Shown: one piece after another, positions 103 to 36,554 of the stretch
Layout: each line of letters begins with the position of its first letter
Position numbering within the stretch: the stretch's first letter is position 1
NCBI GenBank assembly: GCA_035403785.1
Contig: DAONFW010000002.1
Coordinates: 12,676-76,675, forward strand
DNA: 64,000 bases
Origin: Minisyncoccota bacterium
Lineage (GTDB): Bacteria > Patescibacteriota > Minisyncoccia > Phycocordibacterales > UBA9973
Reading direction: 5' to 3'
Program-made: the position numbers and the translations under genes
The notes under the pieces: generated by a model
The model's input: the letters and a program-made list of their open reading frames with translations, nothing else
The model's database searches: none
Told to the model about the DNA's origin: nothing

Positions 103-1407
103 ATGAAAGGTAATTTTCAAATAATAATTTTAGTAATCTTTGTAGCAGCAGCGGTTTTTGGACTTTTGGTTTTTTCTGGCACTATTCCGTTGGGCAACAA
201 AACCGACACGGCTGGTTCTTTGGGTACAGTTACTTTGTGGGGGACAGCCAAAGCAGACGCTCTAGCTGCTCCTATTGATGATTTCAATAGAGCAAATCCA
301 ACTTTTGTGGTTAAGTATGTTCAAAAAGATCCAGAAACTTTCGATCAGGATTTGCTTGAAGCAATGGCTTCAGGAGTTGGTCCGGATATGTTTTTCTTGC
401 CAGATAATTTAGTTTTTGATTATGCTAATAAAATTTATGTAATTCCTTATGAAAGCTATTCAGCCGCTTCTTTTCAAAATACTTTCAGTAGTGCAGGAGA
501 AGTATTTATGTTTTCAAAAGGAATTTTAGCTTTTCCGATTACAGTTGATCCACTAATGATGTATTACAACAGAAGTATGCTGGAATCTAATGGAATTATT
601 TATCCTCCAGCTACCTGGGATGATGTTGTGAGTTACACGGCTAGTTTAACCAAAAAAGATGAATTAAATAAAATCACAAAAAGTACAGTTGCCTTGGGTC
701 AATTTTCTAATGTAGCTCATGCAAAAGATATATTGTCTGCTTTGTTTATGCAAGCTGGCAATCAGATAATTACAGAAAAAGATGGCTCTTTTTCATCTGT
801 TCTTGGAGAAAGTGGAGCTAGCCAAATTAGCTTAGATACAATGCTTTCTTTCTTTACAAGCTTTTCTGATCCACTCAAGAATGTTTATTCCTGGAATCGA
901 TCTTTTGCAAATTCTAGAGATACTTTTAGTTCAGATAATTTAGCTTTTTATTTCGGTTATGCTAGTGAATTACAAACTTTAGTAAATAAAAATCCAAATC
1001 TTAACTTTGCTGTTGCTCCGTTTCCACAAATAAAAAATACTAATTTTAAATTGACTTCTGGAAAAGTTACAGGAATAGCTGTTTCTAACTTTTCAAAAAA
1101 TTTAAGCACAGCCCTTACTGCAGCTAGTCTGTTGGCAACGAGTGATTTTGCCTCGAAATATGCTGAAATAACACAAACTCCACCAGCTAGAAAAGATTTG
1201 CTCTCAAAAAAAATGACAGATGCTTATAATCCATATTTTTACTCGTCAGCTCTTTATGCTCGAAGTTGGTTAGATCCTTCTACTAATGATACTGATAATA
1301 TATTTAAAAATATGATTGAAGGAACGCTTTCTAATAATTTTACAGCGCAAGATGCTATCAGAGATGCCGGCGCGAAAATAAATCTTTTATTAATGAAATA
1401 TAGATAA
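103..1407 (+). CDS. ABC-transporter extracellular solute-binding protein (family 1-like)
   Basis: 434-aa ORF with an N-terminal hydrophobic anchor/signal (IIILVIFVAAAVFGLLVF). Length and composition are typical of periplasmic/lipoprotein solute-binding proteins. No permease or ATPase partner is visible in the window. Confidence 0.5.
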   Translation: MKGNFQIIILVIFVAAAVFGLLVFSGTIPLGNKTDTAGSLGTVTLWGTAKADALAAPIDDFNRANPTFVVKYVQKDPETFDQDLLEAMASGVGPDMFFLPDNLVFDYANKIYVIPYESYSAASFQNTFSSAGEVFMFSKGILAFPITVDPLMMYYNRSMLESNGIIYPPATWDDVVSYTASLTKKDELNKITKSTVALGQFSNVAHAKDILSALFMQAGNQIITEKDGSFSSVLGESGASQISLDTMLSFFTSFSDPLKNVYSWNRSFANSRDTFSSDNLAFYFGYASELQTLVNKNPNLNFAVAPFPQIKNTNFKLTSGKVTGIAVSNFSKNLSTALTAASLLATSDFASKYAEITQTPPARKDLLSKKMTDAYNPYFYSSALYARSWLDPSTNDTDNIFKNMIEGTLSNNFTAQDAIRDAGAKINLLLMKYR

Positions 1408-1439: not shown

Positions 1440-1835
1440 ATGAAAATTTTAAACAAACAAAATAAAAAAAATACATTTTTTGTTACCGGAACTTTTTTGT
1501 TACTTGTGCCAATTATTTCTTTTGGAGCAGGGCTTGTTCCATGTGGTGGTCAGGGAGAGAGTGAATGTAATTTTAATTTTCTTTTAATTTTAATTAATAA
1601 TATAGTTAAGTTTGTTTTATTTAGGTTAGCTGTTCCAATAGCTGCGATTATGTTTGCTTACGCTGGTATTTTACTTCTGACTTCTGGTGGCAATACATCA
1701 CAAAAAGAAAAATCAAAAAAAATATTTACTGGTGTGGCAATAGGTATTGTAATAGCCGCAGCTGCTTGGATTATCGTTCACTTGATTGTTTCTGTTTTGG
1801 GCTGTGGAGATAGCTGCAGTTGGATTGGTTTTTAA
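1440..1835 (+). CDS. TrbC/VirB2-like pilin-type small membrane protein (paralog 1 of 5)
   Basis: 131 aa. N-terminal signal/TM, a Cys-containing segment (PCGGQGESEC), then two hydrophobic helices separated by a short basic loop (SQKEKSKK). This is the conjugative-pilin (VirB2/TrbC) topology. First gene of a tandem array of similar genes. Confidence 0.5.
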   Translation: MKILNKQNKKNTFFVTGTFLLLVPIISFGAGLVPCGGQGESECNFNFLLILINNIVKFVLFRLAVPIAAIMFAYAGILLLTSGGNTSQKEKSKKIFTGVAIGIVIAAAAWIIVHLIVSVLGCGDSCSWIGF

Positions 1836-1854
1836 TAATTAGTATAATAAAAAT

Positions 1855-2262
1855 ATGAAATCTATAATAAAAAATTTTTTTGCGGTTACTTTAGCGGCTT
1901 TTGTTCTTTTTGCTCCAATTTTATCTTTTGCGCAGCAGACGGGAGATTTGTCAGGTGGTAGCCAGACAGGAGATTTATCTCCTTCTACCACCACGATTAA
2001 TAATCCAATAGGAGTCAGTGATGTTAATAGTTTTATCAGAGTGATTTTGGTTGGCGTTGTTAAAATTGGAATACCAATAGTCGCTTTGGCTATTATTTAT
2101 TCTGGTTTTCTTTTTGTAACAGCTAGAGGAAATCCTGAAGCTCTTAAAAAAGCAAAAAGTGCTTTCTTATATACAGTTATCGGTGCAGCTATTTTGTTGG
2201 GTTCTTGGGCAATTGCTCAGTTAATATCTAGTACAGTTTTAGAAATAGGTAAAAGTGTTTAA
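1855..2262 (+). CDS. TrbC/VirB2-like pilin-type small membrane protein (paralog 2)
   Basis: 135 aa. Signal peptide ending in AQQ, then two hydrophobic helices (VILVGVVKIGIPIVALAIIYSGFLF / LYTVIGAAILLGSWAIAQL) flanking the charged loop ARGNPEALKKAKS. Confidence 0.5.
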   Translation: MKSIIKNFFAVTLAAFVLFAPILSFAQQTGDLSGGSQTGDLSPSTTTINNPIGVSDVNSFIRVILVGVVKIGIPIVALAIIYSGFLFVTARGNPEALKKAKSAFLYTVIGAAILLGSWAIAQLISSTVLEIGKSV

Positions 2263-2273
2263 TAGATAAAAAA

Positions 2274-3005
2274 ATGAAAAACAATTTTTCTAATAAAATA
2301 TTATTGTGTATAATTCTTTCAGCTTTTTTTGTGCCATGTTTATCTTTTGCTCAGAATTCTGGTTTTCAGGCACAAGTTCAAGTCGCTCCGAATTATAATT
2401 ATTCTGGTTCAATTACAGGGGTACAAGCAGATGTGACTCAAGGAGAAGAATCATCTCTTGGTGGTGATATAAATGTTACAAATAATGCATCTGCTACGGC
2501 ACAAGCTCAGGGCGAAGTAGTTGGTGTTTCCGCTAGGTATAACACCAGCATCTCAAGTGGATTTACCTGTGCTTTGCCTAATAATCCAGTATTGAAAGAT
2601 TTGATAAATTATGCAACATGTTTGCTTTCAAAATCCATTGTTCCACTTATTTTTGGTGCAGCTATGGTTTTGTTTATCTGGGGCGTTGTTCAGTATGTTA
2701 TTGGAACAGACGATGAAACAAAAAAGAAAAAAGGAAAAACTTTTATGATTTGGGGTCTTGTTTCTTTAGCCGTAATGACTTCTGTTTGGGGTTTGGTTCG
2801 TATTTTGGGTAATACTTTTGGAGTAAATACAACGGTGATTCCTCAACTTAATACACAAAAATCTGCCAATACTGGTAATAGTATATATGAAGCCCCAGAA
2901 CAAACTGCTCCGTCTTTTTCCAGTGAGATTCAAACAATGCCTACTTTACCTGCGGGACAAATTCAGACAACAAACAGCTCTTTTTCAGGTCAAATAAGAC
3001 AATAA
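2274..3005 (+). CDS. TrbC/VirB2-like pilin-type protein with N- and C-terminal extensions (paralog 3)
   Basis: 243 aa. Signal peptide, Cys pair (FTCALPN...YATCLL), and the core IWGVVQYVIGTDDETKKKKGKTFMIWGLV shared almost verbatim with paralogs 4 and 5. There is a Ser/Thr/Gln-rich C-terminal tail. Confidence 0.5.
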   Translation: MKNNFSNKILLCIILSAFFVPCLSFAQNSGFQAQVQVAPNYNYSGSITGVQADVTQGEESSLGGDINVTNNASATAQAQGEVVGVSARYNTSISSGFTCALPNNPVLKDLINYATCLLSKSIVPLIFGAAMVLFIWGVVQYVIGTDDETKKKKGKTFMIWGLVSLAVMTSVWGLVRILGNTFGVNTTVIPQLNTQKSANTGNSIYEAPEQTAPSFSSEIQTMPTLPAGQIQTTNSSFSGQIRQ

Positions 3006-3250
3006 ACTATTTGCTTTTAAGCTCAGTATGTTATAATTAATAGGTGCTTAATTATTTAGGCAAGTTATAAATTATTATTAGGTCGCTAATTATTATAAAT
3101 TATTTCAGCTAAGATTAGCTGATTCGTTATTAACGGAAAAAATATGAATCCCGTTAGAAGTTAACTTTCGGGAATCGTAATTTTTAAAAATAAAATAAGT
3201 TGTCTAGCATATTTTGTAAGTAAAGTAAGTTAGTATAACTTCTAAACGGG

Positions 3251-3640
3251 ATGAAAAAGAAATTAATTACATTATTTAGTTTTGTTCTTGGTTTTGCTCC
3301 ATTAGCATTGTTTGCTCAACAGCAAGTAGGTAATGCTTCAGGATGTGCGGGTGTTGAGAGTGGAACTCTTCAGTCAGTAATTTGTACTGTTGGAAATGTT
3401 CTAGATACTCTTATTCCAATTCTTATAGTGTTGGGTATTGTGTATTTCGTATGGGGCGTTGTTCAGTATGTTATTGGTGACGATGAAGAAGCAAAAAAGA
3501 AAGGGAAAAATAGAATGATTTATGGAATCATTGGTCTAGTTGTAATCGTTGCAATGTGGGGTCTAGTTGGAATTATCACAAAGACTTTCGGTTTGAGTGG
3601 AACAACAAACGTTACTATTCCAACTCTTCCAATAAACTAA
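3251..3640 (+). CDS. TrbC/VirB2-like pilin-type small membrane protein (paralog 4)
   Basis: 129 aa. Signal peptide, Cys pair, and the core VWGVVQYVIGDDEEAKKKGKNRMIYGIIGLV between two hydrophobic helices. Preceded by a 245-bp AT-rich leader. Confidence 0.55.
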   Translation: MKKKLITLFSFVLGFAPLALFAQQQVGNASGCAGVESGTLQSVICTVGNVLDTLIPILIVLGIVYFVWGVVQYVIGDDEEAKKKGKNRMIYGIIGLVVIVAMWGLVGIITKTFGLSGTTNVTIPTLPIN

Positions 3641-3649
3641 ATATTTATT

Positions 3650-3994
3650 ATGATAGATTTGTTTTTACCAAATATTGCGTATGCTAGTGTAGACACATTT
3701 ATTGCCAAGGTTAATGAGGTAATTATTAATCCGCTTATCTTGTTGATGTTTGCATTAGCTTTAGTTTTCTTCTTTTATGGAATAGTAGAATTTCTTGCAA
3801 ATCCAGAAAGTGACGAGAAGAAGACAAAAGGTAAAAGCCATATGATTTGGGGAATAGTTGGTATTACGATTATGATGGGAGTATGGTTTATTATGCATCT
3901 TGTTATGAATACTCTAAATATAGAAGGAATTAATCCGGAAAAAGGAGAAGTGAAACTAAATGAGTATGCTCCAAATTATAATTGGAATCCTTAA
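3650..3994 (+). CDS. TrbC/VirB2-like pilin-type small membrane protein, short-leader variant (paralog 5)
   Basis: 114 aa. Only a 12-aa N-terminal leader (MIDLFLPNIAYA) before the conserved core (...FYGIVEFLANPESDEKKTKGKSHMIWGIVGI...). The ATG lies 9 nt after the stop of paralog 4. Confidence 0.5.
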   Translation: MIDLFLPNIAYASVDTFIAKVNEVIINPLILLMFALALVFFFYGIVEFLANPESDEKKTKGKSHMIWGIVGITIMMGVWFIMHLVMNTLNIEGINPEKGEVKLNEYAPNYNWNP

Positions 3995-4026: not shown

Positions 4027-4060
4027 AAAAAGGCGATCCACATCCATGAATCGCCTTTTG
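4027..4060. terminator. Bidirectional rho-independent terminator hairpin
   Basis: AAAAGGCGAT-(12 nt loop)-ATCGCCTTTT: a 10-bp stem with an A-run 5' and a T-run 3'. It sits between convergent genes ending at 3994 (+) and 4068 (-). Confidence 0.5.
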
Positions 4061-4067
4061 AGTTACC

Positions 4068-4463
4068 TCATTTATTTATTTTGTATACAACGACCCGAAC
4101 ATGAGGTTTATTCGGATTAGCAGATTTGATACTAACTGTTCCTCCTTTTGCACCGGCAGGAGTGCCGGGGTTGTCCTTTCCGTCAAAGAAAAATTCTTCT
4201 GAGACACCTGTAAATTTTTCATAGACAGGTTCCCCAAAAGTTTCAAGCCGGAACTTGAAGTTAATGACAGGATCACATGGTGTAAAACCATCGAATACAA
4301 TGATTTCAGTTCCTGTGCTGTTTTCGGAATATTGCTCTGTCTGGTCGGTTGCTTTTTTATCATTTGAATTATCTTTTTTATCAAAAGATTTTACCCAGAA
4401 AATAAAAAGAAACGCCATTACAAGAATGATAACTAGACGAATAATTTTTACAGTATTTTTCAT
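4068..4463 (-). CDS. Small membrane-anchored protein co-transcribed with the SPFH gene (possible NfeD-like partner)
   Basis: 131 aa with an N-terminal TM (IIRLVIILVMAFLFIFWV) and a beta-rich C-terminal half. Its start overlaps the stop of the upstream SPFH gene by 1 nt. The NfeD assignment rests on gene context only. Confidence 0.4.
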   Translation of the reverse strand: MKNTVKIIRLVIILVMAFLFIFWVKSFDKKDNSNDKKATDQTEQYSENSTGTEIIVFDGFTPCDPVINFKFRLETFGEPVYEKFTGVSEEFFFDGKDNPGTPAGAKGGTVSIKSANPNKPHVRVVVYKINK

Positions 4464-5365
4464 TATTTTTTTCCTCCAAATTTTTCAATGAGTAAAGTAA
4501 TTGCTTTTACCACTTCAGGTGAAATTTCAATTCCCTCGAGATTTAGTTTTGCTTCGCCTCCAAGCACGATTTCTTTTATTTCTTTTGTTAGACTAATATC
4601 TTTGTCTAACAAAGGAGCGAGAGTTCGTGCTTCTTTATCTGAGTACCCAGCTTTTTTTAAAGTTTCCACCATTTCTTTTACGGCATTTGCTTTAGAAGCG
4701 GCATTTCTTGCACGTTGAACTTCTTCATTATAATCAACGTCTTTTATAGGGCATTCAATGACAATAATAGAAAGCTCTTTAGCAACTTCATCGAAGTCCT
4801 TTTTTTTAAGGATTTGTTCATGAGTGAAACTTTTTACATTAGTGCAAGTTTCATCTTTTACTTTTTCCCTGATGGTTTTTTCAGCAACAGCTGTTTGCAT
4901 GCTGTTAATTGCTTCTTGTGTGTACCTTACATAATTGATCATTCTTTCTGATCTTTTCTTTTCTGATGCTCCCGCAGCAGAATCAGGTTTTGACATGATT
5001 GCTGCTTCGATTTCCATACTGCCATCAATCGTTGGAAAAGTTCCACGTACTTTCGCGTGTATGATTGCTTCAAGGTTTACAATGAATTCGATTGATTCCC
5101 ACGGTAATTTAAAATAGAAGCCTTCGAACACAGCACGCCTTTTTTTAGTGAAATAATTTAATAAGACGTGACAGTCGTTCATCTTAACGTTTCCGACAAA
5201 AGAATTGAGACTGATTAAGGAAACGAAAAGGAATACAATAGTCCCAGGAAGTAAATATGCTTCTGAAGTAACAAGCAGAATTAAGAGCTGAATAACAGCC
5301 CATATGGCAGTTAGTGTTACGAACAACCAAAAACTTGCCGAACCGGAGGTTGAAATTTTTTCCAT
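4463..5365 (-). CDS. SPFH/band-7 (stomatin/prohibitin/HflC-like) membrane protein
   Basis: 300 aa. N-terminal TM followed by an SPFH-like core (KLPWESIEFIVNLEAIIHAKVRGTFPTIDG...) and a coiled-coil/Ala-Lys-rich C-terminus. Confidence 0.65.
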   Translation of the reverse strand: MEKISTSGSASFWLFVTLTAIWAVIQLLILLVTSEAYLLPGTIVFLFVSLISLNSFVGNVKMNDCHVLLNYFTKKRRAVFEGFYFKLPWESIEFIVNLEAIIHAKVRGTFPTIDGSMEIEAAIMSKPDSAAGASEKKRSERMINYVRYTQEAINSMQTAVAEKTIREKVKDETCTNVKSFTHEQILKKKDFDEVAKELSIIVIECPIKDVDYNEEVQRARNAASKANAVKEMVETLKKAGYSDKEARTLAPLLDKDISLTKEIKEIVLGGEAKLNLEGIEISPEVVKAITLLIEKFGGKK

Positions 5366-5393
5366 TTTTTTTGTTTTTTAAATTATTAATTAT

Positions 5394-5473
5394 TGTTTGA
5401 TTTGTTTGTTCCAATTGCTAATCTATTTTATTTTTTAAGAGAGGGGATTAGCGACAAAAACAAACAAATCAAG
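5394..5473. promoter_or_regulatory. Nested AT-rich inverted repeats in the SPFH gene leader
   Basis: Outer arms TTGATTTGTTTGTT (5397-5410) and AACAAACAAATCAA (5459-5472). Inner arms GCTAATC (5417-5423) and GATTAGC (5446-5452). Located 30-110 bp upstream of the minus-strand start at 5365. Confidence 0.3.
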
Positions 5474-5533
5474 ATAACTAATAACTTGTTTTTCAAGTAT
5501 CAAATTCTACATAAAGTATATCACAAATAATAC

Positions 5534-5563
5534 AAAAAGTCAACCCTATTGGGCTGACTTTTT
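5534..5563 (-). terminator. Terminator hairpin downstream of the surface-protein gene
   Basis: AAAAAGTCAACCC-TATT-GGGCTGACTTTTT: a stem with one mismatch. On the minus strand it is followed by a T-run. Confidence 0.45.
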
Positions 5564-5581
5564 GTATTATTTGTAAAGGTT

Positions 5582-6352
5582 TTAGGCGTGTTTCAGTGGT
5601 TGTGCCTTGTATTTTTCACCTGCGTGAGTAAGCTTTCTCCAAACTATTACTATTAGTAATACTAAGATTATTAGTAGCAACCATCCTAGAAAACTTGTTG
5701 GCAAGAAACTGTCTGAAGAGAATAGGGCATTAGCTGCTAAATTACTATCAGTATCTTCATCTGTTGTTTCTGACACACAAGCTGGTGTGGTTGTTGTTTT
5801 TGGTTTTGCAGTTGAACTTGGTTTTGGCTTGCTTGTAGTTGTAGCTGAAGTGGTTGGTGCTTTCTTGAGTGTGTAATATGCTGTGTTTGAAAGTCCACCA
5901 TTTGAAGTGTGATTGTATACAGTGATTGATTGTGAGCCTAAACCTGTCATATCAGCATCTGTTGTGTGCATGATAATTTGGCTAGAACTTACATAACTTG
6001 TATTTCTATCACTACCATTCCATCTAGCTACAGAGCCTGGGATAAAGTTATAACCGTTAATTGTTATATCTTTAGCGCCTGTTTTGGTGATTCCTGAAGT
6101 TGGACTAATTGAAGTAATGTGTGGAACCAAACTCGTATTCTGGGTGTTATTAGTATTATTGTTTGTATTACCACTATTATTATTACTGTTGTTATTTCCA
6201 GAGTTATCATTATTCCAATGATCAAATTCAGTATTTGCACCGAAGTCAACTGTAACTGTTCTTGCTGAAACTGTGTTAGTTAAAGAAAAGCTTAACACTA
6301 ACGCAAAGATGGCGAAAATCAATATTAAGTTTTTGTTTAATAATTTTTTCAT
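5582..6352 (-). CDS. Cell-surface protein with Asn-rich low-complexity region, Thr/Ser/Pro-rich stalk and C-terminal membrane anchor (possible sortase-type sorting signal)
   Basis: 256 aa. Signal peptide, NNDNSGNNNSNNNSGNTNNNTNNTQNT, an Ig-like middle region, a TTSATTTSKPKPSSTAKPKTTTTP stalk, then LPTSF + hydrophobic helix + WRK near the C-terminus. Confidence 0.45.
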   Translation of the reverse strand: MKKLLNKNLILIFAIFALVLSFSLTNTVSARTVTVDFGANTEFDHWNNDNSGNNNSNNNSGNTNNNTNNTQNTSLVPHITSISPTSGITKTGAKDITINGYNFIPGSVARWNGSDRNTSYVSSSQIIMHTTDADMTGLGSQSITVYNHTSNGGLSNTAYYTLKKAPTTSATTTSKPKPSSTAKPKTTTTPACVSETTDEDTDSNLAANALFSSDSFLPTSFLGWLLLIILVLLIVIVWRKLTHAGEKYKAQPLKHA

Positions 6353-20822: not shown

Positions 20823-23660
20823 ATGAAAAATTACGATCATAAAAAAATTGAAAAAAAATGGCAGAAAGTTTGGGAAGACAAAAAAATTTATCAAGCCAAG
20901 AATAATTCCAAAAAGAAGAAGTTTTATTCTTTGATTGAATTTCCATATCCGTCTGGTGCTGGGTTGCATGTCGGTCATCCTCGTCCGTATATTGGGATGG
21001 ATATTGTTTCTCGTAAAAAGAGAATGGAAGGATATAATGTTCTTTTCCCAATTGGTTGGGATGCTTTTGGTTTACCAACAGAAAACTATGCTATTAAAAC
21101 TGGAATTCATCCATCAAAAGTCACAAAACAAAATACTGACAATTTTCGTCGTCAAATAAAAATGTTTGGTCCGTCTTTTGATTGGACACGAGAAATAAAC
21201 ACAACTGATCCGACTTATTACAAATGGACGCAGTGGATTTTTTTACAGATGTATAAAAAAGGTTTGGCTTACAAATCAGAAATGCCAATCAATTGGTGTC
21301 CAAAATGTAAAATTGGTCTAGCAAACGAAGAAGTAATAAACGGCAAATGTGAACGATGTGGCGCTGATACAGAAAGAAGATTAAAAAAACAATGGATGTT
21401 GGGAATTACAAAATATGCTGACAGATTAGATAAAGATTTGGATTTAGTTGATTACCCTGAAAGTATAAAATTACAGCAGAGAAACTGGATCGGCAGATCA
21501 GAGGGAAGTGAAATAGAATTTAAAATAAAAAATTCTGATCAGAAAATAAAAGTTTTCACTACACGTGCAGATACTTTGTTCGGTGCGACTTATGTTGTGC
21601 TTGCGCCTGAGCATGAATTGGTGCAGAAGTTAAATTTTGAAAATAAAAAAGAAGTTGAAAATTATATTAAGTCAGTAAAAAGTAAAACTGATATTGAAAG
21701 AACAGATGAGAAAAAAGAAAAAACAGGAGTTGAATTGAAGGGCTTGAAAGCTATCAATCCAGCTAACAGTGAAGAGATTCCAGTTTGGGTTGCTGATTAC
21801 GTTTTAGTTGGTTACGGAACTGGTGCAGTAATGGCAGTACCGGCGCATGATGAGAGAGACTTCGCGTTTGCGAAGAAATATGGGTTAGAAATTAGGCAGG
21901 TAATTGCTCCATTTTTTACTGAAAAAGAAGATGGTAAAGATAAAGTTAGACCTGATAAAAAAACTGTTACTCGAAAAACTGCTTATGCTTTAGTTTTTGA
22001 TAAAAAGAATAATAGATTTTTGTGTTTAGATTGGGAAAAGTTTAATTGGCATTCTGGAATAATTGGTGGTGTCGATGAAGGAGAAACTTATCTAGAAGCA
22101 GCATTAAGAGAAATAAAAGAAGAAACTGGTTATACTAACCTTAAATTTATAAAAGAATTAGGGATGGAACAACATAATAATTTTTTTGCTGCTCATAAAG
22201 ATGAAAATAGGTATGCAATAGGTCGTGGAATGCTTTTTGAACTCATTGATGAAGATAAAATAGAAACAGAAGAAGAACATACTTGTAATCATAAACTTGT
22301 TTGGATAAGAGCTGAGGAGATGAAAGATTGGTTAAATCTTTCGGCTTTTGAGTATATGTGGAAAGCGTATATTTCTGGTTCTGATTGTTTTATTGACGAT
22401 GGAATTTTAATGAACTCTGGAAATTTTAATGACTTAAATTCAGATGAAGCTCGAAATAAAATTACAGAATTTGTTGGGGGAAAAATAGTTACGAAATACA
22501 AATTACGCGATTGGGTCTTTTCAAGACAGAGATATTGGGGAGAACCGATTCCACTTATTCACTGCGAGAAGTGCGGTTGGGTTGCAGTTCCTGAAAAAGA
22601 TTTGCCGGTAAAATTACCAGAAGTAAAAAATTACAAGCCGACCGATACGGGAGAATCGCCGCTTTCTTTAATTTCAAAATGGGTGAATGTAAAATGCCCG
22701 AAGTGTAAAGGGAAAGCGGTGAGAGAAACAGACACAATGCCAAACTGGGCGGGAAGTTCTTGGTATTATTTAAGATACACAGATCCGAAAAATAAAAAAG
22801 AATTTGCGAATAAAAATATTCTAAAATACTGGACGCCGGTAGATTGGTATAACGGTGGCATGGAGCACGTTACTTTGCACTTATTGTATTCAAGATTTTG
22901 GCATAAGTTTTTGTATGATTTGAAATTAGTGCCAACAAAAGAACCGTACAAAAAAAGAACAGCACATGGAATGGTTCTTGCTGCAAACGGCGAAAAGATG
23001 TCTAAATCAAGAGGCAACGTAGTGAACCCAGATGATGTAATAAAATTATACGGAGCTGATACTTTGAGAATTTACGAAATGTTTATTGGGCCTTTCGGTG
23101 ATACTGTTGCTTGGAATGATGAAAGTATAATCGGCCCAAGAAGATTTATTGAGAAAGTTTGGAGAATCAGTCAGAAAGTTTCAAAAGAAAAAACTTCTGG
23201 TGATGTTGTAAAATTGTTGCACAAGACTATCAAGAAAGTAGGAGAAGATATAGAAGAAATGCGTTTCAATACAGCAGTTTCTGCGATGATGATTCTAGCT
23301 AGTGAGTTTGAAAAAGTTGAAGATATAAATATAAAAGATTTTAAATTATTCTTGCAGATTTTGGCACCGTTTACACCGCACGTTGCCGAAGAACTTTGGA
23401 TTTCTTTGGGCGAGAAAAAAACGATACATCTTTCAAGTTGGCCAAAATTTGATAAAAATTTAATAAAAGATGATGAAGTAAAAATAGCTGTTCAGGTAAA
23501 CGGAAAAGTTCGAGCAGAAATGTTGATTCAGATAGATGAGAAAGAAGAAAATATAAAAGAAAAAGCGCTAAAAATAGAGCAAGTTGTTAAATTTACTGAA
23601 AATAAAGAAATAAGAAAAGTAATTTATGTAAAAAACAGACTTGTGAATATCGTAGTGTAG
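20823..23660 (+). CDS. leuS: Leucyl-tRNA synthetase carrying an inserted Nudix-box domain in the CP1 region
   Basis: 945 aa. HIGH motif HVGHPRPY, Zn knuckles CPKCK..CERCG, editing-site TTRADT and GTGAVMAVPAHDERD, KMSKS. About 160 extra residues (aa ~365-525, nt ~21915-22398) contain GGVDEGETYLEAALREIKEETGY, a perfect match to the Nudix box GX5EX7REUXEEXGU. Confidence 0.9.
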   Translation: MKNYDHKKIEKKWQKVWEDKKIYQAKNNSKKKKFYSLIEFPYPSGAGLHVGHPRPYIGMDIVSRKKRMEGYNVLFPIGWDAFGLPTENYAIKTGIHPSKVTKQNTDNFRRQIKMFGPSFDWTREINTTDPTYYKWTQWIFLQMYKKGLAYKSEMPINWCPKCKIGLANEEVINGKCERCGADTERRLKKQWMLGITKYADRLDKDLDLVDYPESIKLQQRNWIGRSEGSEIEFKIKNSDQKIKVFTTRADTLFGATYVVLAPEHELVQKLNFENKKEVENYIKSVKSKTDIERTDEKKEKTGVELKGLKAINPANSEEIPVWVADYVLVGYGTGAVMAVPAHDERDFAFAKKYGLEIRQVIAPFFTEKEDGKDKVRPDKKTVTRKTAYALVFDKKNNRFLCLDWEKFNWHSGIIGGVDEGETYLEAALREIKEETGYTNLKFIKELGMEQHNNFFAAHKDENRYAIGRGMLFELIDEDKIETEEEHTCNHKLVWIRAEEMKDWLNLSAFEYMWKAYISGSDCFIDDGILMNSGNFNDLNSDEARNKITEFVGGKIVTKYKLRDWVFSRQRYWGEPIPLIHCEKCGWVAVPEKDLPVKLPEVKNYKPTDTGESPLSLISKWVNVKCPKCKGKAVRETDTMPNWAGSSWYYLRYTDPKNKKEFANKNILKYWTPVDWYNGGMEHVTLHLLYSRFWHKFLYDLKLVPTKEPYKKRTAHGMVLAANGEKMSKSRGNVVNPDDVIKLYGADTLRIYEMFIGPFGDTVAWNDESIIGPRRFIEKVWRISQKVSKEKTSGDVVKLLHKTIKKVGEDIEEMRFNTAVSAMMILASEFEKVEDINIKDFKLFLQILAPFTPHVAEELWISLGEKKTIHLSSWPKFDKNLIKDDEVKIAVQVNGKVRAEMLIQIDEKEENIKEKALKIEQVVKFTENKEIRKVIYVKNRLVNIVV

Positions 23661-23701: not shown

Positions 23702-25408
23702 ATGGTAAAAAAAATCAGAAACTTTCTCAAGAAAAACTTTCTACTTACTGCTAGCTTAATGTTTCTAGTTGTTTTTTCAGGTACAATGCAGTTATTTGCT
23801 GCTGATCCACCACCTCCAGTAGGTGGTTATCCGGCAGGTACAGTTCTTGATCCAGGTTGTACACCAGGAAGTGTAGATTGTATAGTTGCTCAAGCTGTAT
23901 ATAATGCTGGAGATATTATGTATGATAATTCAACTTCTGGTTTAACTGCTACTGATACTCAGGCTGCGATTGATGAGATAGATGGGGTTGTGGATAATAT
24001 AAACGATTTTACAATTGATGTAAATAATAATATGTTTGCCGGAACTGGAGCGGGAAGTTCTTTGTCTGGTGGCCAAAATAATTTTTTTGCAGGTATTGGT
24101 GCTGGGCAGAATACAACAACGGGAAGTAATAATATCGCTATTGGTTATCAAACACTTTATTCAAACTTAACAGGAAATAAAAATACGTCGAATGGATTTC
24201 AAACACTTTTTTTAAATACAATAGGATATGATAATACAGCCAACGGGTATTTATCCCTTGCTTCGAACACGACAGGATTTCAAAATACTGCTATTGGCCT
24301 TCAATCTCTTACTACAAATACAATTGGATATCAAAATGTAGCTAACGGTGTTCAATCACTTGGCATAAATACAACAGGATATCAAAATACTGCTAATGGG
24401 TATAATGCACTTGTTGGTAACACAACGGGTTGGGCCAACAGTGCTATTGGATATCAAACTCTTTCCACTAATACTACAGGGTCTTATAATACGGCTATCG
24501 GTTATAATGCAGATGTAACTGTAAATAATCTAATTAATGCAACAGCTATTGGTTACAATGCAAAGGTTGGTTCAAGCAATAGTTTGGTCCTTGGAGGAAC
24601 TGGGGCAGATGCTGTGAAAGTTGGAATCGGTACAACAACACCAACTAATGTTCTAGATATTGTTGGGCCAGCATTGGATACAACAGTAGTAAGTATTTCA
24701 ACAACTGGAGGAAATACTTGCACTTTTAATACAGGAGTTAATCCGGGAGTTTGGTCCTGTGCTTCAGATAGAAGATTGAAAAATAGTATTTCTGCTATAG
24801 ATAACAATTTAGCTTTAACAAAGATAAACGCACTTAATCCAGTAATGTTTCATTATAATTGGCAAGAATCTTCAGACCCTTTAGTTCCAGGATTTATTGC
24901 CCAAGAATTCGAAGAAATTTTTCCAGATATGGTTTCAACAAATCCAGAAACTGGTTACAAATCTCTTTCTTACACTCCACTTATTCCATATACAGTGAAA
25001 GCTATTCAAGAACTTGATCTAAAAGTAGAAGACTTAATTGTTGAAAAACAAAATCTATTTAATAATTTAATTGCTTGGTTTGGAAATGTGGGGAATGGAA
25101 TAGAAAAATTATTTGCAAAAGAAATACATACAGATATGATTTGTGTTAAAAAATCAGATGGTACAGAGAGATGTGTCACAGGAGATGAATTAGACCAAGT
25201 TCTTTCAAACTCTGGATTGAATAATATTACTCCTACACAAGCACAAGAACCTATTAGGTCTAATAATGCTGGTGATGTAACAGAAGAAGGAATAGACGGA
25301 ACTGCTCCTAATGAAGCCCAAAATCCAACTACCGAAACTCCTCAATCAGAAACGCCGCTTAGTGATACCCCTACAACAGATACAACAAACCCAACAGAAA
25401 GTGCTTAA
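23702..25408 (+). CDS. Secreted tail-fibre-like protein: ~14-residue Asn/Thr/Gly repeats plus C-terminal Peptidase-S74-type intramolecular chaperone domain
   Basis: 568 aa. Signal peptide; about 10 repeats of the form NTxGxxNTAxGxxxL (aa ~140-270). CASDRRLKNSISAIDNNLALTKINALNPVMFHYNW at nt 24764 onward matches the SDxRxK auto-cleavage motif and downstream pattern of phage tail-spike chaperone domains. Thr/Pro-rich C-terminal tail. Confidence 0.55.
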   Translation: MVKKIRNFLKKNFLLTASLMFLVVFSGTMQLFAADPPPPVGGYPAGTVLDPGCTPGSVDCIVAQAVYNAGDIMYDNSTSGLTATDTQAAIDEIDGVVDNINDFTIDVNNNMFAGTGAGSSLSGGQNNFFAGIGAGQNTTTGSNNIAIGYQTLYSNLTGNKNTSNGFQTLFLNTIGYDNTANGYLSLASNTTGFQNTAIGLQSLTTNTIGYQNVANGVQSLGINTTGYQNTANGYNALVGNTTGWANSAIGYQTLSTNTTGSYNTAIGYNADVTVNNLINATAIGYNAKVGSSNSLVLGGTGADAVKVGIGTTTPTNVLDIVGPALDTTVVSISTTGGNTCTFNTGVNPGVWSCASDRRLKNSISAIDNNLALTKINALNPVMFHYNWQESSDPLVPGFIAQEFEEIFPDMVSTNPETGYKSLSYTPLIPYTVKAIQELDLKVEDLIVEKQNLFNNLIAWFGNVGNGIEKLFAKEIHTDMICVKKSDGTERCVTGDELDQVLSNSGLNNITPTQAQEPIRSNNAGDVTEEGIDGTAPNEAQNPTTETPQSETPLSDTPTTDTTNPTESA

Positions 25409-35447: not shown

Positions 35448-36248
35448 ATGAATTCAAAAGCACAAATAGTAGCAACAATAGGTCCAGCGTCGAGAGACAG
35501 AAATGTTTTGAAAAAAATGATAGAACACAACATGGATGTTGCGCGTATTAATTTTTCTTGGGGAACTTATGCTGAACACGCTGAGCTTATAAAAACTATC
35601 AAAGAGGTTGCACAAGAAGTTGGCAGAAGAATTCCAATTATTCAGGATCTTTCTGGTCCAAGAGTGCAAGAAGAACATGGGCATGAATTCAAGGCTGGCG
35701 CGACTCAAGTAGTTACAGAAAAAGATGTTGCCGATTTGAAATTTGGCCTAGAGCAAGGAATAGATTATGTTGCTATGTCTTTTGTTGGCAGTGCTGGTGA
35801 CGTTTTAGAATTAAAAAATAAAATGAAAGAATTTGGCAGAGAAGTGCCAATAATTGCAAAAATAGAAAGAAAGGTAGCTGTAGAAAATTTAAAAGAAATA
35901 ATAAAAGTTTCTGATGCTATTATGGTTGCGCGTGGAGATTTGGGTAATGAATTTCCATTAGAGCAAATTCCGTTTGTTGAAAAAGATATTATAGAAAAAA
36001 GTAAAAAAGCAGGGAAGCCAGTGATTGTTGCTACCCAGATGATGCTTTCTATGACTGAAAATCTAGTGCCGACAAGAGCTGAAATGACTGACGTTGCTTA
36101 TGCTATTTTGACCGGTGCAGATGCTGTTATGCTTTCAGAAGAAAGTGCATTGGGTAAGCATCCCGTTGAAGTTGTAGAAATGATGGAAAGAGAAGTATTT
36201 GAATCAGAAAAGTATTTGCCAGCTGATGCAAAATTTAATCTTTTGTAA
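35448..36248 (+). CDS. Minimal pyruvate-kinase-like protein (A-domain TIM barrel only; no B lid or C-terminal domain)
   Basis: 266 aa with clear PK signatures: IVATIGPAS; IIAKIE with catalytic Lys; MVARGDLG; [13 protein letters not shown]; [12 protein letters not shown]. About 100 aa of B domain between GPR and DLKFG are absent, and the protein stops where the C domain would start. The NFSHG histidine is replaced by W (NFSWG). Confidence 0.6.
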
Positions 36249-36306: not shown

Positions 36307-36377
36307 GCGGGATTAGTTTAGTGGTAGAATGAGTCCTTCCCAAGGATTAGACACGGGTTCGATTCCCGTATCCCGCA
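36307..36377 (+). tRNA. tRNA-Gly(CCC)
   Basis: GCGGGATTAGTTTAGTGGTAGAATGAGTCCTTCCCAAGGATTAGACACGGGTTCGATTCCCGTATCCCGCA. Anticodon loop TTCCCAA. Confidence 0.85.
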
Positions 36378-36554
36378 CAGGATGTTTAAATATTTAGCTC
36401 AAATATTTTTTATTTTCTATTTTTTAATAAAAATAAGCTGATTAAAGATGAAAAAATAGGATGTTTTATTTTTTCTGAAAAAGTGTTAAAATAGCTAAAC
36501 TAGTATTGAAATTATTAGGATTTTTAGAACTTAATTTAATAAGATTTAATAAAC

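What the first reader, a model, noticed from the sequence alone, without database searches (positions are those of the whole stretch)
1440..3994. Tandem array of five VirB2/TrbC-type pilin-like paralogs with no secretion-system ATPase nearby
Seen directly: five consecutive same-strand ORFs (114-243 aa) each have the topology of conjugative/T4SS pilins: a leader, a Cys-containing segment, and two hydrophobic helices separated by a short Lys-rich loop. Paralogs 3-5 share an almost identical core (WGVVQYVIG-DDE-KKKGK--MIWG). Paralog 3 carries long N- and C-terminal extensions. Paralog 5 has only a 12-residue leader and starts 9 nt after the stop of paralog 4. No VirB4/VirB11/VirD4-like gene is present within the window. 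Multi-copy VirB2-like genes are reported in reduced-genome episymbiotic bacteria; a five-gene array with a leader-variable member suggests diversification of a surface filament subunit (inference). This could be for host attachment or DNA uptake.
Basis: partly seen in the sequence, partly recalled or inferred. Interest (0 to 1): 0.55.

Follow-up and report, generated by a model that had tools for sequence, protein, structure and literature searches.

The report
Conserved five-gene VirB2-like pilin array
Five neighbouring small membrane-protein genes in this ultra-small (Patescibacteria) bacterium are real, anciently diverged VirB2-like "pilin" paralogs, but such arrays, including ones far from the secretion ATPase, are already described for this phylum, so this is a well-preserved example of a known feature.

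Summary
Five same-strand ORFs (1440-3994) all pass Pfam's cutoff for PF18895 (T4SS_pilin). NCBI already names two of them "pilin". No VirB4, VirB11, VirD4 or other T4SS part lies in the 64-kb window or in the 10 kb upstream.

It is not new. Quinonero-Coronel et al. 2025 report 441 arrays of 2-11 VirB2-like pilins in Patescibacteria. About 40% of pilin-bearing, VirB4-bearing assemblies have no pilin gene near virB4. Six named Nomurabacteria relatives with this same array are listed there as VirB4-positive.

New detail from this analysis:
- The array is a fixed locus (GyrA, methyltransferase, SBP_bac_1, P1-P5) in about 75 of 80 related species.
- Gene order 1-2-3-4-5 holds in 51 of 80.
- Each paralog has one-to-one orthologs, and dN/dS is 0.07-0.43.

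This argues for five specialised subunits, not recent diversification. P5's 12-residue N-terminus is conserved.

The most likely function is subunits of a pilus-like or envelope structure built by a T4SS encoded elsewhere. This is inferred, not shown. Direct similarity to canonical VirB2 is weak (hhalign 65% for P1/P2), and Foldseek was uninformative.

Verdict: new member of a known kind, low-to-moderate interest.

The parts
103..1407 (+). SBP_bac_1 solute-binding-protein homolog with an N-terminal membrane anchor. It is the conserved upstream neighbour of the array, 32 nt before P1, and may be co-transcribed. No ABC permease or ATPase is in the window.
   Evidence: Pfam PF01547, E 2.6e-18. 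Directly upstream of the array in 75 of 80 related loci and in L001, L007 and L009.
1440..1835 (+). P1: PF18895 pilin-like protein of 131 aa. It has a Sec-type signal peptide, an LVPCG...C motif, a 2-TM hairpin with a basic loop, and a C-terminal CGDSCSWIGF. In relatives this type often carries large N-terminal domains.
   Evidence: PF18895 36.5 bits and PF04956 TrbC 21.7 bits (below GA). One-to-one orthologs. P1 type is at least 300 aa in 16 of 79 loci, with fusions of 435-1095 aa. GenBank HPS21295.1.
1855..2262 (+). P2: PF18895 pilin-like protein of 135 aa. It has a signal peptide ending SFA|QQ, no Cys, and is the paralog closest to canonical TrbC/VirB2.
   Evidence: PF18895 28.9 bits. PF04956 25.2 bits (GA 27.9) over profile positions 8-98 of 98. 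hhalign of the P1/P2 profile against the VirB2/TrbC profile: probability 65%, E 6e-5. Its only plasmid hit is an Mbov_0395-family pilin-like conjugal transfer protein.
2274..3005 (+). P3: PF18895 pilin-like protein of 243 aa. It has a roughly 90-aa low-complexity N-terminal extension and a roughly 60-aa Pro/Gln/Ser/Thr-rich C-terminal tail. Its core is 51% identical to P4. The length of this type varies between species.
   Evidence: PF18895 32.7 bits. Pairwise identities. P3 type ranges from 84 to 350 aa and is at least 200 aa in 40 of 80 loci. NCBI names it 'pilin', HPS21297.1.
3006..3250 (.). Long P3-P4 spacer of 245 nt with a small hairpin at 3105-3122. It may be an internal promoter or regulatory region separating P1-P3 from P4-P5 (inferred).
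   Evidence: The spacer is long in all canonical arrays: median 119 nt, IQR 95-132, against 11-19 nt at the other junctions. The hairpin was found. No Rfam family matches.
3251..3640 (+). P4: PF18895 pilin-like protein of 129 aa. It is the best match to the family profile, among the most conserved paralogs, and constant in size. It is the candidate major subunit (inferred).
   Evidence: PF18895 48.9 bits. NF045849 39.9 bits against a cutoff of 40. 69-75% identity to orthologs and dN/dS 0.07-0.23. 829 homologs (the 120 listed all carry PF18895), and NCBI names it 'pilin'. AF2 model is a helical hairpin, pLDDT 72.
3650..3994 (+). P5: PF18895 pilin-like protein of 114 aa without a canonical signal peptide. 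It has a conserved 11-12-residue N-terminus ending AYA|S.
   Evidence: PF18895 33.2 bits. The N-terminal consensus MDLFSTKIAYA-S[VL]DSF is conserved across species and has no basic n-region. dN/dS is 0.09-0.14.
4028..4059 (.). A 14-bp GC-containing hairpin with T/A runs on both sides. It is a likely bidirectional terminator that closes the array and the convergent 131-aa/Band_7 genes.
   Evidence: Terminator-like site. Sequence.

Best explanation
The region is a conserved chromosomal array of five anciently diverged VirB2-like pilin paralogs (Pfam PF18895). This kind of array is characteristic of Patescibacteria. The organism here is a Paceibacteria / 'Nomurabacteria'-like bacterium.

Shown:
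- P1-P4 have Sec-type signal peptides.
- All five have a helical hairpin of two hydrophobic helices joined by a short Lys-rich loop.

Inferred:
- The positive-inside rule places that loop in the cytoplasm and both termini outside, which is the membrane topology of conjugative propilins.
- The five proteins are non-redundant subunits of one envelope or pilus-like structure. P4 and P5 would be conserved core subunits. P1 and P3 would be subunits that display variable extracellular extensions.
- The structure is assembled by the monoderm-type (MPF-FATA-like) T4SS, made of VirB4, TrsD and VirB3, which in this lineage is encoded elsewhere on the chromosome.
- The structure serves contact with, or uptake from, a host cell.

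The local absence of an ATPase is normal for this lineage. It is not a sign of an ATPase-independent system.
For: Family:
- All five score above GA for PF18895.
- NF045849 'pilin-like conjugal transfer protein' matches four of the five at E < 1e-3, and P4 scores 39.9 against a cutoff of 40.
- NCBI and UniRef name orthologs 'pilin' or 'TrbC/VIRB2 family'.

Link to T4SS:
- P1 and P2 hit PF04956 TrbC at E 2e-4 and 2e-5.
- The P1/P2 profile aligns in register with genuine VirB2/TrbC over the whole hairpin (hhalign probability 65%, E 6e-5).
- The only plasmid homolog lies 4 kb upstream of a CD1110-family VirB4 ATPase in a Firmicute conjugation cluster.
- In Southlakia an array of such pilins lies inside the T4SS locus and is essential (PMC10633639; PMC12857230).

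ATPase elsewhere:
- Six named relatives with the same syntenic array are VirB4-positive in Table S1 of PMC12102498.
- In GCA_001000035.1 the first array gene, KKT24795.1, is listed as 'VirB2, VirB4 proximity: No', while VirB4 and TrsD are CDS 643 and 642.

Non-redundant subunits:
- One-to-one orthologs and dN/dS of 0.07-0.43.
- Order 1-2-3-4-5 in 51 of 80 species.
- Five ORFs in 57 of the 84 loci analysed (80 scanned species plus the window, L001, L007 and L009).
- P2, P4 and P5 are constant in size, while P1 and P3 are variable.
Against: - No filament, assembly or T4SS dependence has been shown for any PF18895 protein of this lineage.
- The profile of the P3/P4/P5 types does not match canonical VirB2 directly (hhalign probability 3%).
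- PF04956 hits are below the gathering cutoff.
- A profile search of PDB sequences and Foldseek against the PDB gave nothing significant.
- The array is never within 10 kb of VirB4 in 80 species, so genomic linkage to the T4SS is absent in this lineage.
- Some P1-type members are the C-terminal end of 435-1095-aa multidomain proteins. That is hard to reconcile with every copy packing into a VirB2-type helical filament.
- VirB4 was not demonstrated in this very genome.
Confidence: 0.6

Rival explanations
1. The PF18895 hairpin is mainly a membrane-anchoring or surface-display module, not a polymerising pilin. The five proteins, together with the co-located SBP_bac_1 protein, would form a T4SS-independent envelope complex. 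It would present variable extracellular segments (the P1 and P3 extensions) for binding host surfaces or nutrients.
For: - The PF18895 domain forms the C-terminal end of large multidomain surface proteins in relatives: 1095 aa with Reprolysin-like, Big_7 and fn3 domains, plus proteins of 743 aa and 435 aa.
- Near VirB4 in GCA_001000035.1, a 'VirB2' hit also carries PF00877 NlpC/P60.
- The array is linked to SBP_bac_1 in 75 of 80 species and never to VirB4.
- There is no significant structural or sequence match to solved conjugative pilins.
Against: - The family's detectable relatives outside the phylum are T4SS pilin-like proteins.
- In Southlakia the homologous array is inside the T4SS locus and essential.
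- Small, constant-size members such as P2, P4 and P5 have nothing to display.
- SBP linkage could be mere synteny.
Confidence: 0.25
2. The array is a diversification or antigenic-variation cassette, as the first reader and the published suggestion for Patescibacteria arrays propose. Interchangeable pilin variants would be used alternately to match different host strains or to evade recognition.
For: - Paralogs are highly divergent (17-51% identity), as in the published arrays (mean 25%).
- The P1 and P3 extensions vary in length between species.
- Some species have 6-8 copies.
Against: - Each paralog has a one-to-one ortholog across species with P4 identity down to 67%.
- Order is fixed in 51 of 80 species.
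- dN/dS is 0.07-0.43, with no sign of recent duplication or gene conversion among copies.
- Variation cassettes normally show recent duplication, recombination and copy-number flux.
Confidence: 0.1
3. These are unrelated small membrane proteins, such as holin-like proteins, toxins or bacteriocin-immunity proteins, that resemble pilins only through composition.
For: - They are short 2-TM proteins, for which composition-driven profile hits are possible.
- The structural search was uninformative.
Against: - There is no PHROGs hit at E <= 0.01 and no holin family in Pfam at E <= 10.
- The context is housekeeping and chromosomal and is conserved in 80 species, not prophage.
- Five independent above-threshold PF18895 hits support pilin identity.
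- The hhalign alignment to VirB2 is in register.
Confidence: 0.03

Closest known systems
VirB2-like pilin arrays of Patescibacteria (Quinonero-Coronel et al. 2025, Microb Genom, PMC12102498)
   Same: - Same Pfam family (PF18895/PF04956) and same phylum.
- Tandem arrays of 2-11 genes.
- Low identity among copies (published mean 25%, maximum 54%; here 17-51%).
- The pilin gene is frequently not near virB4 (near it in 1,135 of 1,948 assemblies).
- The first gene of the homologous array in GCA_001000035.1 is in their Table S3 as 'VirB2, proximity No'.
   Different: [quoted passage not shown] This one is in Paceibacteria (Nomurabacteria-like).
- In the one genome that could be cross-checked, their pipeline listed only 1 of the 5 genes, so this array type seems under-detected.
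- The fixed order, one-to-one orthology, SBP_bac_1 linkage and signal-peptide-less fifth member are not described there.
Essential pilin array of the Southlakia epibionticum ML1 T4SS (Wang et al. 2023 Cell, PMC10633639; reviewed in PMC12857230)
   Same: [quoted passage not shown]
   Different: - There the array lies inside the T4SS gene cluster (SEML1_0006-0019) and was shown essential by Tn-seq.
- Here the array is at least 10 kb upstream and at least 60 kb downstream away from any T4SS gene, and nothing is known experimentally.
Canonical VirB2/TrbC conjugative pilins (PF04956; Agrobacterium T-pilin, RP4 TrbC)
   Same: - Small size and a signal peptide ending A|Q (canonical PA-x-AQ; here SFA|QQ, SFA|QN and LFA|QQ).
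- Two hydrophobic helices with a short basic loop.
- Weak profile similarity for P1 and P2.
   Different: - Scores are below the family cutoff, and there is no detectable similarity for P3-P5.
- The organism is a monoderm with no outer-membrane core complex.
- The genes are not next to virB1, virB3 or virB4.
- There are five paralogs rather than one major pilin.
- Cyclisation and processing are unknown.
Mbov_0395-family pilin-like conjugal transfer proteins of monoderm ICEs and plasmids (NCBIfam NF045849)
   Same: - Closest curated family outside Pfam. P4 scores 39.9 bits against a cutoff of 40, and P2, P3 and P5 match at E 4e-5 to 7e-4.
- A Pontibacillus member is P2's only plasmid hit and sits beside a CD1110-type VirB4.
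   Different: - All five are below the curated cutoff.
- Those proteins are single-copy parts of mobile conjugation modules, not five-gene chromosomal arrays.
Tandem VirB2 paralogs of Bartonella and Anaplasma T4SSs
   Same: Multiple divergent virB2 copies in tandem in host-dependent bacteria. They are cited as the analogy in PMC12102498.
   Different: - Those are thought to support antigenic variation.
- Here the copies are stable one-to-one orthologs under purifying selection.

Membership tests
Pfam PF18895 T4SS_pilin | Whole-protein score at or above the curated gathering cutoff (26.6 bits) | tested here: met
   P1 36.5, P2 28.9, P3 32.7, P4 48.9 and P5 33.2 bits. All 120 listed homologs of P4 carry PF18895.
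Pfam PF04956 TrbC/VirB2 pilin | Whole-protein score at or above the curated gathering cutoff (27.9 bits) | tested here: not met
   P1 scores 21.7 bits (E 2.4e-4) and P2 scores 25.2 bits (E 1.9e-5). P3-P5 have no hit.
Canonical VirB2/TrbC conjugative pilins | Detectable homology to genuine VirB2/TrbC proteins by profile-profile comparison | tested here: inconclusive
   P1/P2 profile (A4) against 8 annotated VirB2/TrbC proteins (A6): probability 64.8%, E 6.2e-5, 65 columns in register. P4-dominated profile (A2) against A6: probability 3%.
Canonical VirB2/TrbC conjugative pilins | Cleavable signal peptide followed by two hydrophobic helices joined by a short basic loop | tested here: met
   P1-P4 have an N-terminal basic region plus a hydrophobic segment ending in an A-x-A-like site. 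All five have two hydrophobic helices and a Lys-rich loop. P5 lacks a canonical signal peptide. Cleavage itself is not shown.
Canonical VirB2/TrbC conjugative pilins | Structural similarity to solved conjugative pilins (T-pilus, F-pilus) | tested here: inconclusive
   Foldseek of the P4 model (pLDDT 72) against the PDB gave a best E of 0.68, with no pilin among 47 hits. The PDB sequence-profile search gave nothing significant. Small helical hairpins give little fold signal.
Canonical VirB2/TrbC conjugative pilins | Encoded within a T4SS gene cluster next to virB1, virB3 or virB4 | tested here: not met
   There is no T4SS gene in the 64-kb window, none in the 10 kb upstream, and none within +-10 kb in 80 related genomes.
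Canonical VirB2/TrbC conjugative pilins | Polymerises into an extracellular pilus in a VirB4-dependent manner | not testable with these tools
   This needs microscopy, biochemistry or genetics.
Patescibacteria VirB2-like pilin arrays (PMC12102498) | Two or more PF18895/PF04956 pilin genes in tandem, or separated by one non-pilin gene | tested here: met
   Five consecutive genes with gaps of 19, 11, 245 and 9 nt.
Patescibacteria VirB2-like pilin arrays (PMC12102498) | Copies highly divergent (published mean about 25% identity, maximum 54%) | tested here: met
   Pairwise identity is 17-51%.
Patescibacteria VirB2-like pilin arrays (PMC12102498) | Host genome is a Patescibacterium | tested here: met
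   The exact proteins are in GenBank as Candidatus Paceibacterota bacterium, HPS21295-HPS21299. The 80 closest loci are all Nomurabacteria, Paceibacterota or Patescibacteria MAGs. GC content is 32%.
Patescibacteria VirB2-like pilin arrays (PMC12102498) | A VirB4-type T4SS ATPase present somewhere in the same genome | not testable with these tools
   Only the window and +-10 kb could be read. Indirectly, 6 of 7 named relatives with the same array are 'VirB4: Yes' in Table S1, and VirB4 is KKT24892.1 in the genome of L018.
NCBIfam NF045849 Mbov_0395 family pilin-like conjugal transfer protein | Score at or above the curated cutoff (40 bits) | tested here: not met
   P4 39.9, P5 26.0, P2 23.2, P3 19.2 and P1 12.4 bits.

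The most novel reading that the evidence does not exclude
The five-gene array plus the always-adjacent orphan SBP_bac_1 gene could encode a fixed-composition heteromeric surface apparatus specific to Nomurabacteria-like Paceibacteria. P4 and P5 would form a core fibre or channel. P1 and P3 would carry exchangeable extracellular modules. P5 would insert without a Sec signal. A tethered solute-binding protein would capture host-derived nutrients. The apparatus would be genetically uncoupled from, and possibly functionally independent of, the VirB4 machine. This would be a repurposing of the VirB2 hairpin beyond pili.
Probability: 0.12. Interest if true: 0.6.

Novelty: new member of a known kind. 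Interest (0 to 1): 0.22.

Why it matters
Patescibacteria are a very large, mostly uncultivated part of bacterial diversity. How they attach to and feed on hosts is an open question. Their T4SS and its VirB2-like pilins are essential in the one genetically tractable species, and their function is unknown.

This locus does not open a new question, but it sharpens an existing one. In a whole Paceibacteria lineage the pilin paralogs are a stable five-member set with fixed order, purifying selection and distinct architectures. That favours five specialised subunits over interchangeable antigenic variants.

The locus also shows that published HMM screens under-count such arrays: only 1 of 5 genes was listed in a cross-checked genome. 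For annotation, P1, P2 and P5 (now 'hypothetical protein') can be named PF18895 pilin-like proteins.

Tried and rejected
- PDB sequence search with a 44-sequence family profile gave only chance hits to GPCRs and ion channels at E >= 0.08.
- Foldseek of the AF2 model of P4 against the PDB gave a best E of 0.68 (DgkA) and no conjugative pilin, so it is uninformative for a small helical hairpin.
- tblastn of P4 against 72,556 plasmids found no match. P2 gave one weak hit.
It was repeated with P1 orthologs only.
- VirB4 search in the flanks of 80 related arrays: the large Walker-A ORFs were AcrB, RecG and a type IV pilus PilB/T2SSE ATPase, plus one unassigned 555-aa ORF in L088. None is VirB4.
- Finding VirB4 in this very genome was not possible. 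The species is not among the GTDB representatives (best P1 identity 55%). Contig walking is limited to +-10 kb around window proteins. No Paceibacteria VirB4 sequence was available as a probe.
- The holin or phage idea was rejected. There are no PHROGs hits and the context is housekeeping.
- Stop-codon read-through fusing P4 and P5 was considered, because they share a frame with a 9-nt gap here and in L009. It was rejected because in L007 the two genes are in different frames with an 88-nt gap.
- An Rfam scan of the window found only tRNAs and nothing in the P3-P4 spacer.


Full report
**1. The observation**

The window carries five consecutive + strand ORFs at exactly the stated coordinates:

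| Paralog | Coordinates | Length | PF18895 score |
|---|---|---|---|
| P1 | 1440-1835 | 131 aa | 36.5 bits |
| P2 | 1855-2262 | 135 aa | 28.9 bits |
| P3 | 2274-3005 | 243 aa | 32.7 bits |
| P4 | 3251-3640 | 129 aa | 48.9 bits |
| P5 | 3650-3994 | 114 aa | 33.2 bits |

- All five scores exceed Pfam's gathering cutoff of 26.6 bits for PF18895 (T4SS_pilin).
- P1 and P2 also hit PF04956 (TrbC/VirB2) below its cutoff, at 21.7 and 25.2 bits against 27.9.
- NCBIfam's closest model is NF045849, 'Mbov_0395 family pilin-like conjugal transfer protein'. P4 scores 39.9 against a cutoff of 40, and P2, P3 and P5 match at E 4e-5 to 7e-4.
- A hydropathy scan and alignment show, in every paralog, two hydrophobic helices joined by a short Lys-rich loop.
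- The AlphaFold2 model of P4 (pLDDT 72) has helices 40-75 and 79-112.
- P1-P4 begin with a basic n-region and a hydrophobic segment ending in an A-x-A-like site (SFG|AG, SFA|QQ, SFA|QN, LFA|QQ).
- P5 has only MIDLFLPNIAYA before the conserved part, and it starts 9 nt after P4's stop.

- Cys residues occur in the mature part of P1, P3 and P4 only.
- The 'almost identical core' holds for P3/P4 (51% over 67 aa) but not for P5 (29-35%).

**2. No secretion machinery nearby**

- All ORFs of at least 300 aa and nearly all of at least 120 aa were scanned against Pfam.
- The window is an ordinary housekeeping stretch of a 32%-GC chromosome. It includes ClpB, IF2, RbfA, LeuRS, a second class-I aminoacyl-tRNA synthetase, a class-II aminoacyl-tRNA synthetase (Asp/Lys/Asn type), MurJ, LepA, enolase, pyruvate kinase, iPGM, FtsZ, FtsA, MraZ, MraW, GreA and 11 tRNAs.
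- There is no VirB4, VirB11, VirD4, VirB3/PrgI, TrsD or VirB6.
- My own pilin HMM finds no sixth pilin in the window.
- The array lies 1.4 kb from the window's edge, so I fetched the same locus from another assembly (GCA_964410415.1, L001). The 10 kb upstream encode a glucosaminidase, an FG-GAP protein, an S1-domain protein, a Lactamase_B_3 protein, GyrA, a methyltransferase and the SBP_bac_1 protein.

**3. Whose genome, and how conserved**

- The exact proteins are GenBank HPS21295.1-HPS21299.1 (PLO44_00585-00605) of a 'Candidatus Paceibacterota bacterium' MAG.
- NCBI already names P3 and P4 'pilin'.
- P4 has 829 homologs in the protein collection. The 120 listed all carry PF18895 and come from Paceibacterota, Nomurabacteria and Minisyncoccia.
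- Orthologs only 67-72% identical to P4 lie on contigs of 294-339 kb in the same setting: GyrA, methyltransferase, SBP_bac_1, five pilins, a small ORF, Band_7, then RbfA, IF2, DUF4446, aminotransferase and ClpB.

A scan of one genome per GTDB species with the P1 orthologs returned 80 loci, all from Patescibacteria MAGs. The best identity was 55%, so this species itself is not a representative. In those loci:
- 57 of the 84 sequences analysed (the 80 loci plus the window, L001, L007 and L009) have exactly five pilin ORFs, 14 have six, and four have seven or eight. The rest are truncated contigs or non-syntenic single hits.
- SBP_bac_1 is directly upstream in 75 of 80, the methyltransferase in 71 and GyrA in 67.
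- With type-specific HMMs, gene order is 1-2-3-4-5 in 51 of 80 loci and 1-2-4-3-4-5 in 10.

**4. Evolutionary mode**

- Each paralog has a one-to-one ortholog in L007 and L009. Orthologs score 107-190 bits and paralogs 20-84 bits.
- Nei-Gojobori dN/dS is 0.07-0.43 for all five genes, at saturating dS.
- P4 and P5 are the most conserved. P1 and P3 evolve fastest.
- P2, P4 and P5 are constant in size across species.
- P1 is at least 300 aa in 16 of 79 loci, and P3 is at least 200 aa in 40 of 80.
- Pfam confirms that the long P1 forms are real fusions. One is a 1095-aa protein with Reprolysin-like, Big_7 and fn3 domains and a C-terminal PF18895 domain. Others are 743 aa and 435 aa.
- P5's short N-terminus is not an annotation artefact. 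The consensus MDLFSTKIAYA|S[VL]DSF, without a basic n-region, recurs across the canonical arrays.
- The P3-P4 spacer is long everywhere (median 119 nt, against 11-19 nt at the other junctions). This suggests an internal regulatory region (inference).
- A strong bidirectional hairpin at 4028-4059 closes the array.

Together these results argue against recent diversification or a variation cassette. They favour five specialised, co-maintained components.

**5. Relation to T4SS**

Direct evidence is modest but consistent.
- I used my recollection of the Agrobacterium VirB2 sequence only as a probe. It matched annotated virB2 at 99% identity.
- I fetched eight annotated VirB2/TrbC genes and aligned them.
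- hhalign aligns the P1/P2 profile with them in register over the entire hairpin, at probability 65% and E 6e-5.
- The P4-dominated profile does not match (probability 3%). P3-P5 are linked to VirB2 only transitively, through P1/P2 (for example P2-P4 at E 8e-13) and through PF18895.
- P2's only tblastn hit among 72,556 plasmids is an Mbov_0395-family pilin-like gene in a Pontibacillus megaplasmid (E 0.03). It lies 4 kb upstream of a CD1110-family VirB4 ATPase and next to a large peptidoglycan endopeptidase, which is a monoderm conjugation module.
- The PDB sequence search and Foldseek were uninformative.
- PHROGs gave no hit, which removes the holin idea.

**6. What is already known**

- Quinonero-Coronel et al. 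2025 (PMC12102498) searched 3,035 Patescibacteria genomes with PF04956 and PF18895, among other profiles.
  - VirB2-like pilins were found in 1,948 VirB4-bearing assemblies, near virB4 in only 1,135.
  - They found 441 arrays of 2-11 pilin genes, with a mean identity of 25% and a maximum of 54%.
  - In Paceibacteria, virB4 typically lies near dnaA/dnaN.
- Wang et al. 2023 (PMC10633639) showed that the T4SS cluster of Southlakia, including its series of pilins, is essential. The 2025 T4SS review highlights the six divergent pilins.
- In the paper's Table S1, six named Nomurabacteria genomes are 'Presence of VirB4: Yes', and one (L078) is 'No'. I found the same syntenic array in those six (L017, L018, L019, L036, L061, L066).
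- In Table S3, GCA_001000035.1 has TrsD and VirB4 at CDS 642 and 643. It also has a 'VirB2, VirB4 proximity: No' entry, KKT24795.1.
- An exact-sequence look-up shows that KKT24795.1 is the first gene of the L018 array. Genes 2, 4 and 5 (KKT24796, KKT24798 and KKT24799) are not in the table.
- The 'orphan' status is therefore local and typical of this lineage. The published screen under-detects this array type.

**7. Interpretation**

- Best supported (confidence about 0.6): the five proteins are non-redundant VirB2-like subunits of an envelope or pilus-like structure, assembled by the monoderm-type T4SS encoded elsewhere. P4 and P5 would be the conserved core, and P1 and P3 would carry variable outward-facing extensions.
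  - Shown: family membership, topology features, conservation, purifying selection, absence of local T4SS genes, and VirB4 elsewhere in relatives.
  - Inferred: cleavage, polymerisation, dependence on VirB4, and a role in host interaction.
- Main rival (about 0.25): the PF18895 hairpin is chiefly a membrane anchor or display module working independently of the T4SS. The large fusions and the strict SBP_bac_1 linkage support this.
- Variation cassette (about 0.1) and unrelated small membrane proteins (about 0.03) are poorly supported.

**8. Verdict**

This is a real feature and was correctly recognised as pilin-like. It is a new member of a known and recently published kind, and part of it is already annotated as 'pilin'. 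The lineage-wide fixed five-paralog architecture is a useful refinement rather than a surprise. Interest 0.22.

Noticed in passing
window 103-1407 (+), and 75 of 80 related loci: An SBP_bac_1 solute-binding-protein homolog with an N-terminal membrane anchor always sits immediately upstream of the pilin array (32 nt here). No ABC permease or ATPase is present in the window. This could be a functional coupling or just stable synteny.
   Followed up: partly
L074:2384-5668, L014:6980-9208, L072:6260-7564: In some species the P1-type PF18895 domain is the C-terminal end of large multidomain proteins. One is 1095 aa with Reprolysin-like, Big_7 and fn3 domains; others are 743 aa and 435 aa. This suggests the 'pilin' hairpin can serve as an anchor for surface domains.
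   Followed up: partly
window 3650-3690 (P5 N-terminus), and P5 orthologs in about 50 loci: P5-type proteins lack a Sec-type signal peptide. They share a conserved 11-12-residue N-terminus, MDLFSTKIAYA, followed by S[VL]DSF. It could be a non-canonical leader, or the protein could insert by a YidC-type route. The significance is unknown.
   Followed up: partly
window 3006-3250: The P3-P4 spacer is unusually long (245 nt here; median 119 nt across species, against 11-19 nt at the other junctions). It contains a hairpin at 3105-3122. A TAGTATAA(T/C) motif lies just upstream of both the P2 and P4 start codons. It may be an internal promoter. There is no Rfam match.
   Followed up: partly
PMC12102498 Table S3 compared with L018:10007-12414: The published T4SS census lists only the first of the five array genes (KKT24795.1) for Nomurabacteria GW2011_GWF2_43_8. 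In another Nomurabacteria genome it labels one array gene as FATA_PrgF. Paceibacteria pilin arrays therefore appear under-counted.
   Followed up: partly
window 20823-23660 (+): The leucyl-tRNA synthetase (945 aa) carries a NUDIX hydrolase domain (PF00293, E 5.6e-11, residues 384-501) inserted after the editing domain. This is an unusual domain insertion.
   Followed up: no
window 35448-36248 and 36555-37985 (+), tRNA-Gly at 36307-36378: A 266-aa ORF matches only the C-terminal half of the pyruvate kinase barrel. It lies just upstream of a tRNA-Gly gene and a full-length pyruvate kinase gene. It may be a remnant of a duplication or a disrupted copy.
   Followed up: no
window 23702-25408 (+): A 568-aa protein has a Peptidase_S74 domain (the intramolecular chaperone of endosialidase and phage tail-fibre proteins) in an otherwise housekeeping region.
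   Followed up: no
window 4068-6352 (-): Convergent with the array are a 131-aa membrane protein with no family, an SPFH/Band_7 protein, and a 256-aa Asn- and Thr/Pro-rich protein with a signal peptide and a C-terminal TM anchor. The last is conserved downstream of the array in 48 of 80 loci.
   Followed up: partly
L091 (Pontibacillus megaplasmid NZ_CP062975.1, 351801-361354): A Firmicute conjugation-like module contains an Mbov_0395-family pilin-like gene, a CD1110-type VirB4 and a 1050-aa DD-metalloendopeptidase. Monoderm T4SS clusters thus do carry a small VirB2-like hairpin protein. This bears on whether the Patescibacteria pilins were inherited with the MPF-FATA system rather than co-opted.
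   Followed up: partly
L021, L029, L046, L063, L070 (contig ranges): In several long assemblies the contig ends about 9-20 kb upstream of the array. This hints at a repeat or otherwise hard-to-assemble element at a conserved position upstream.
   Followed up: no
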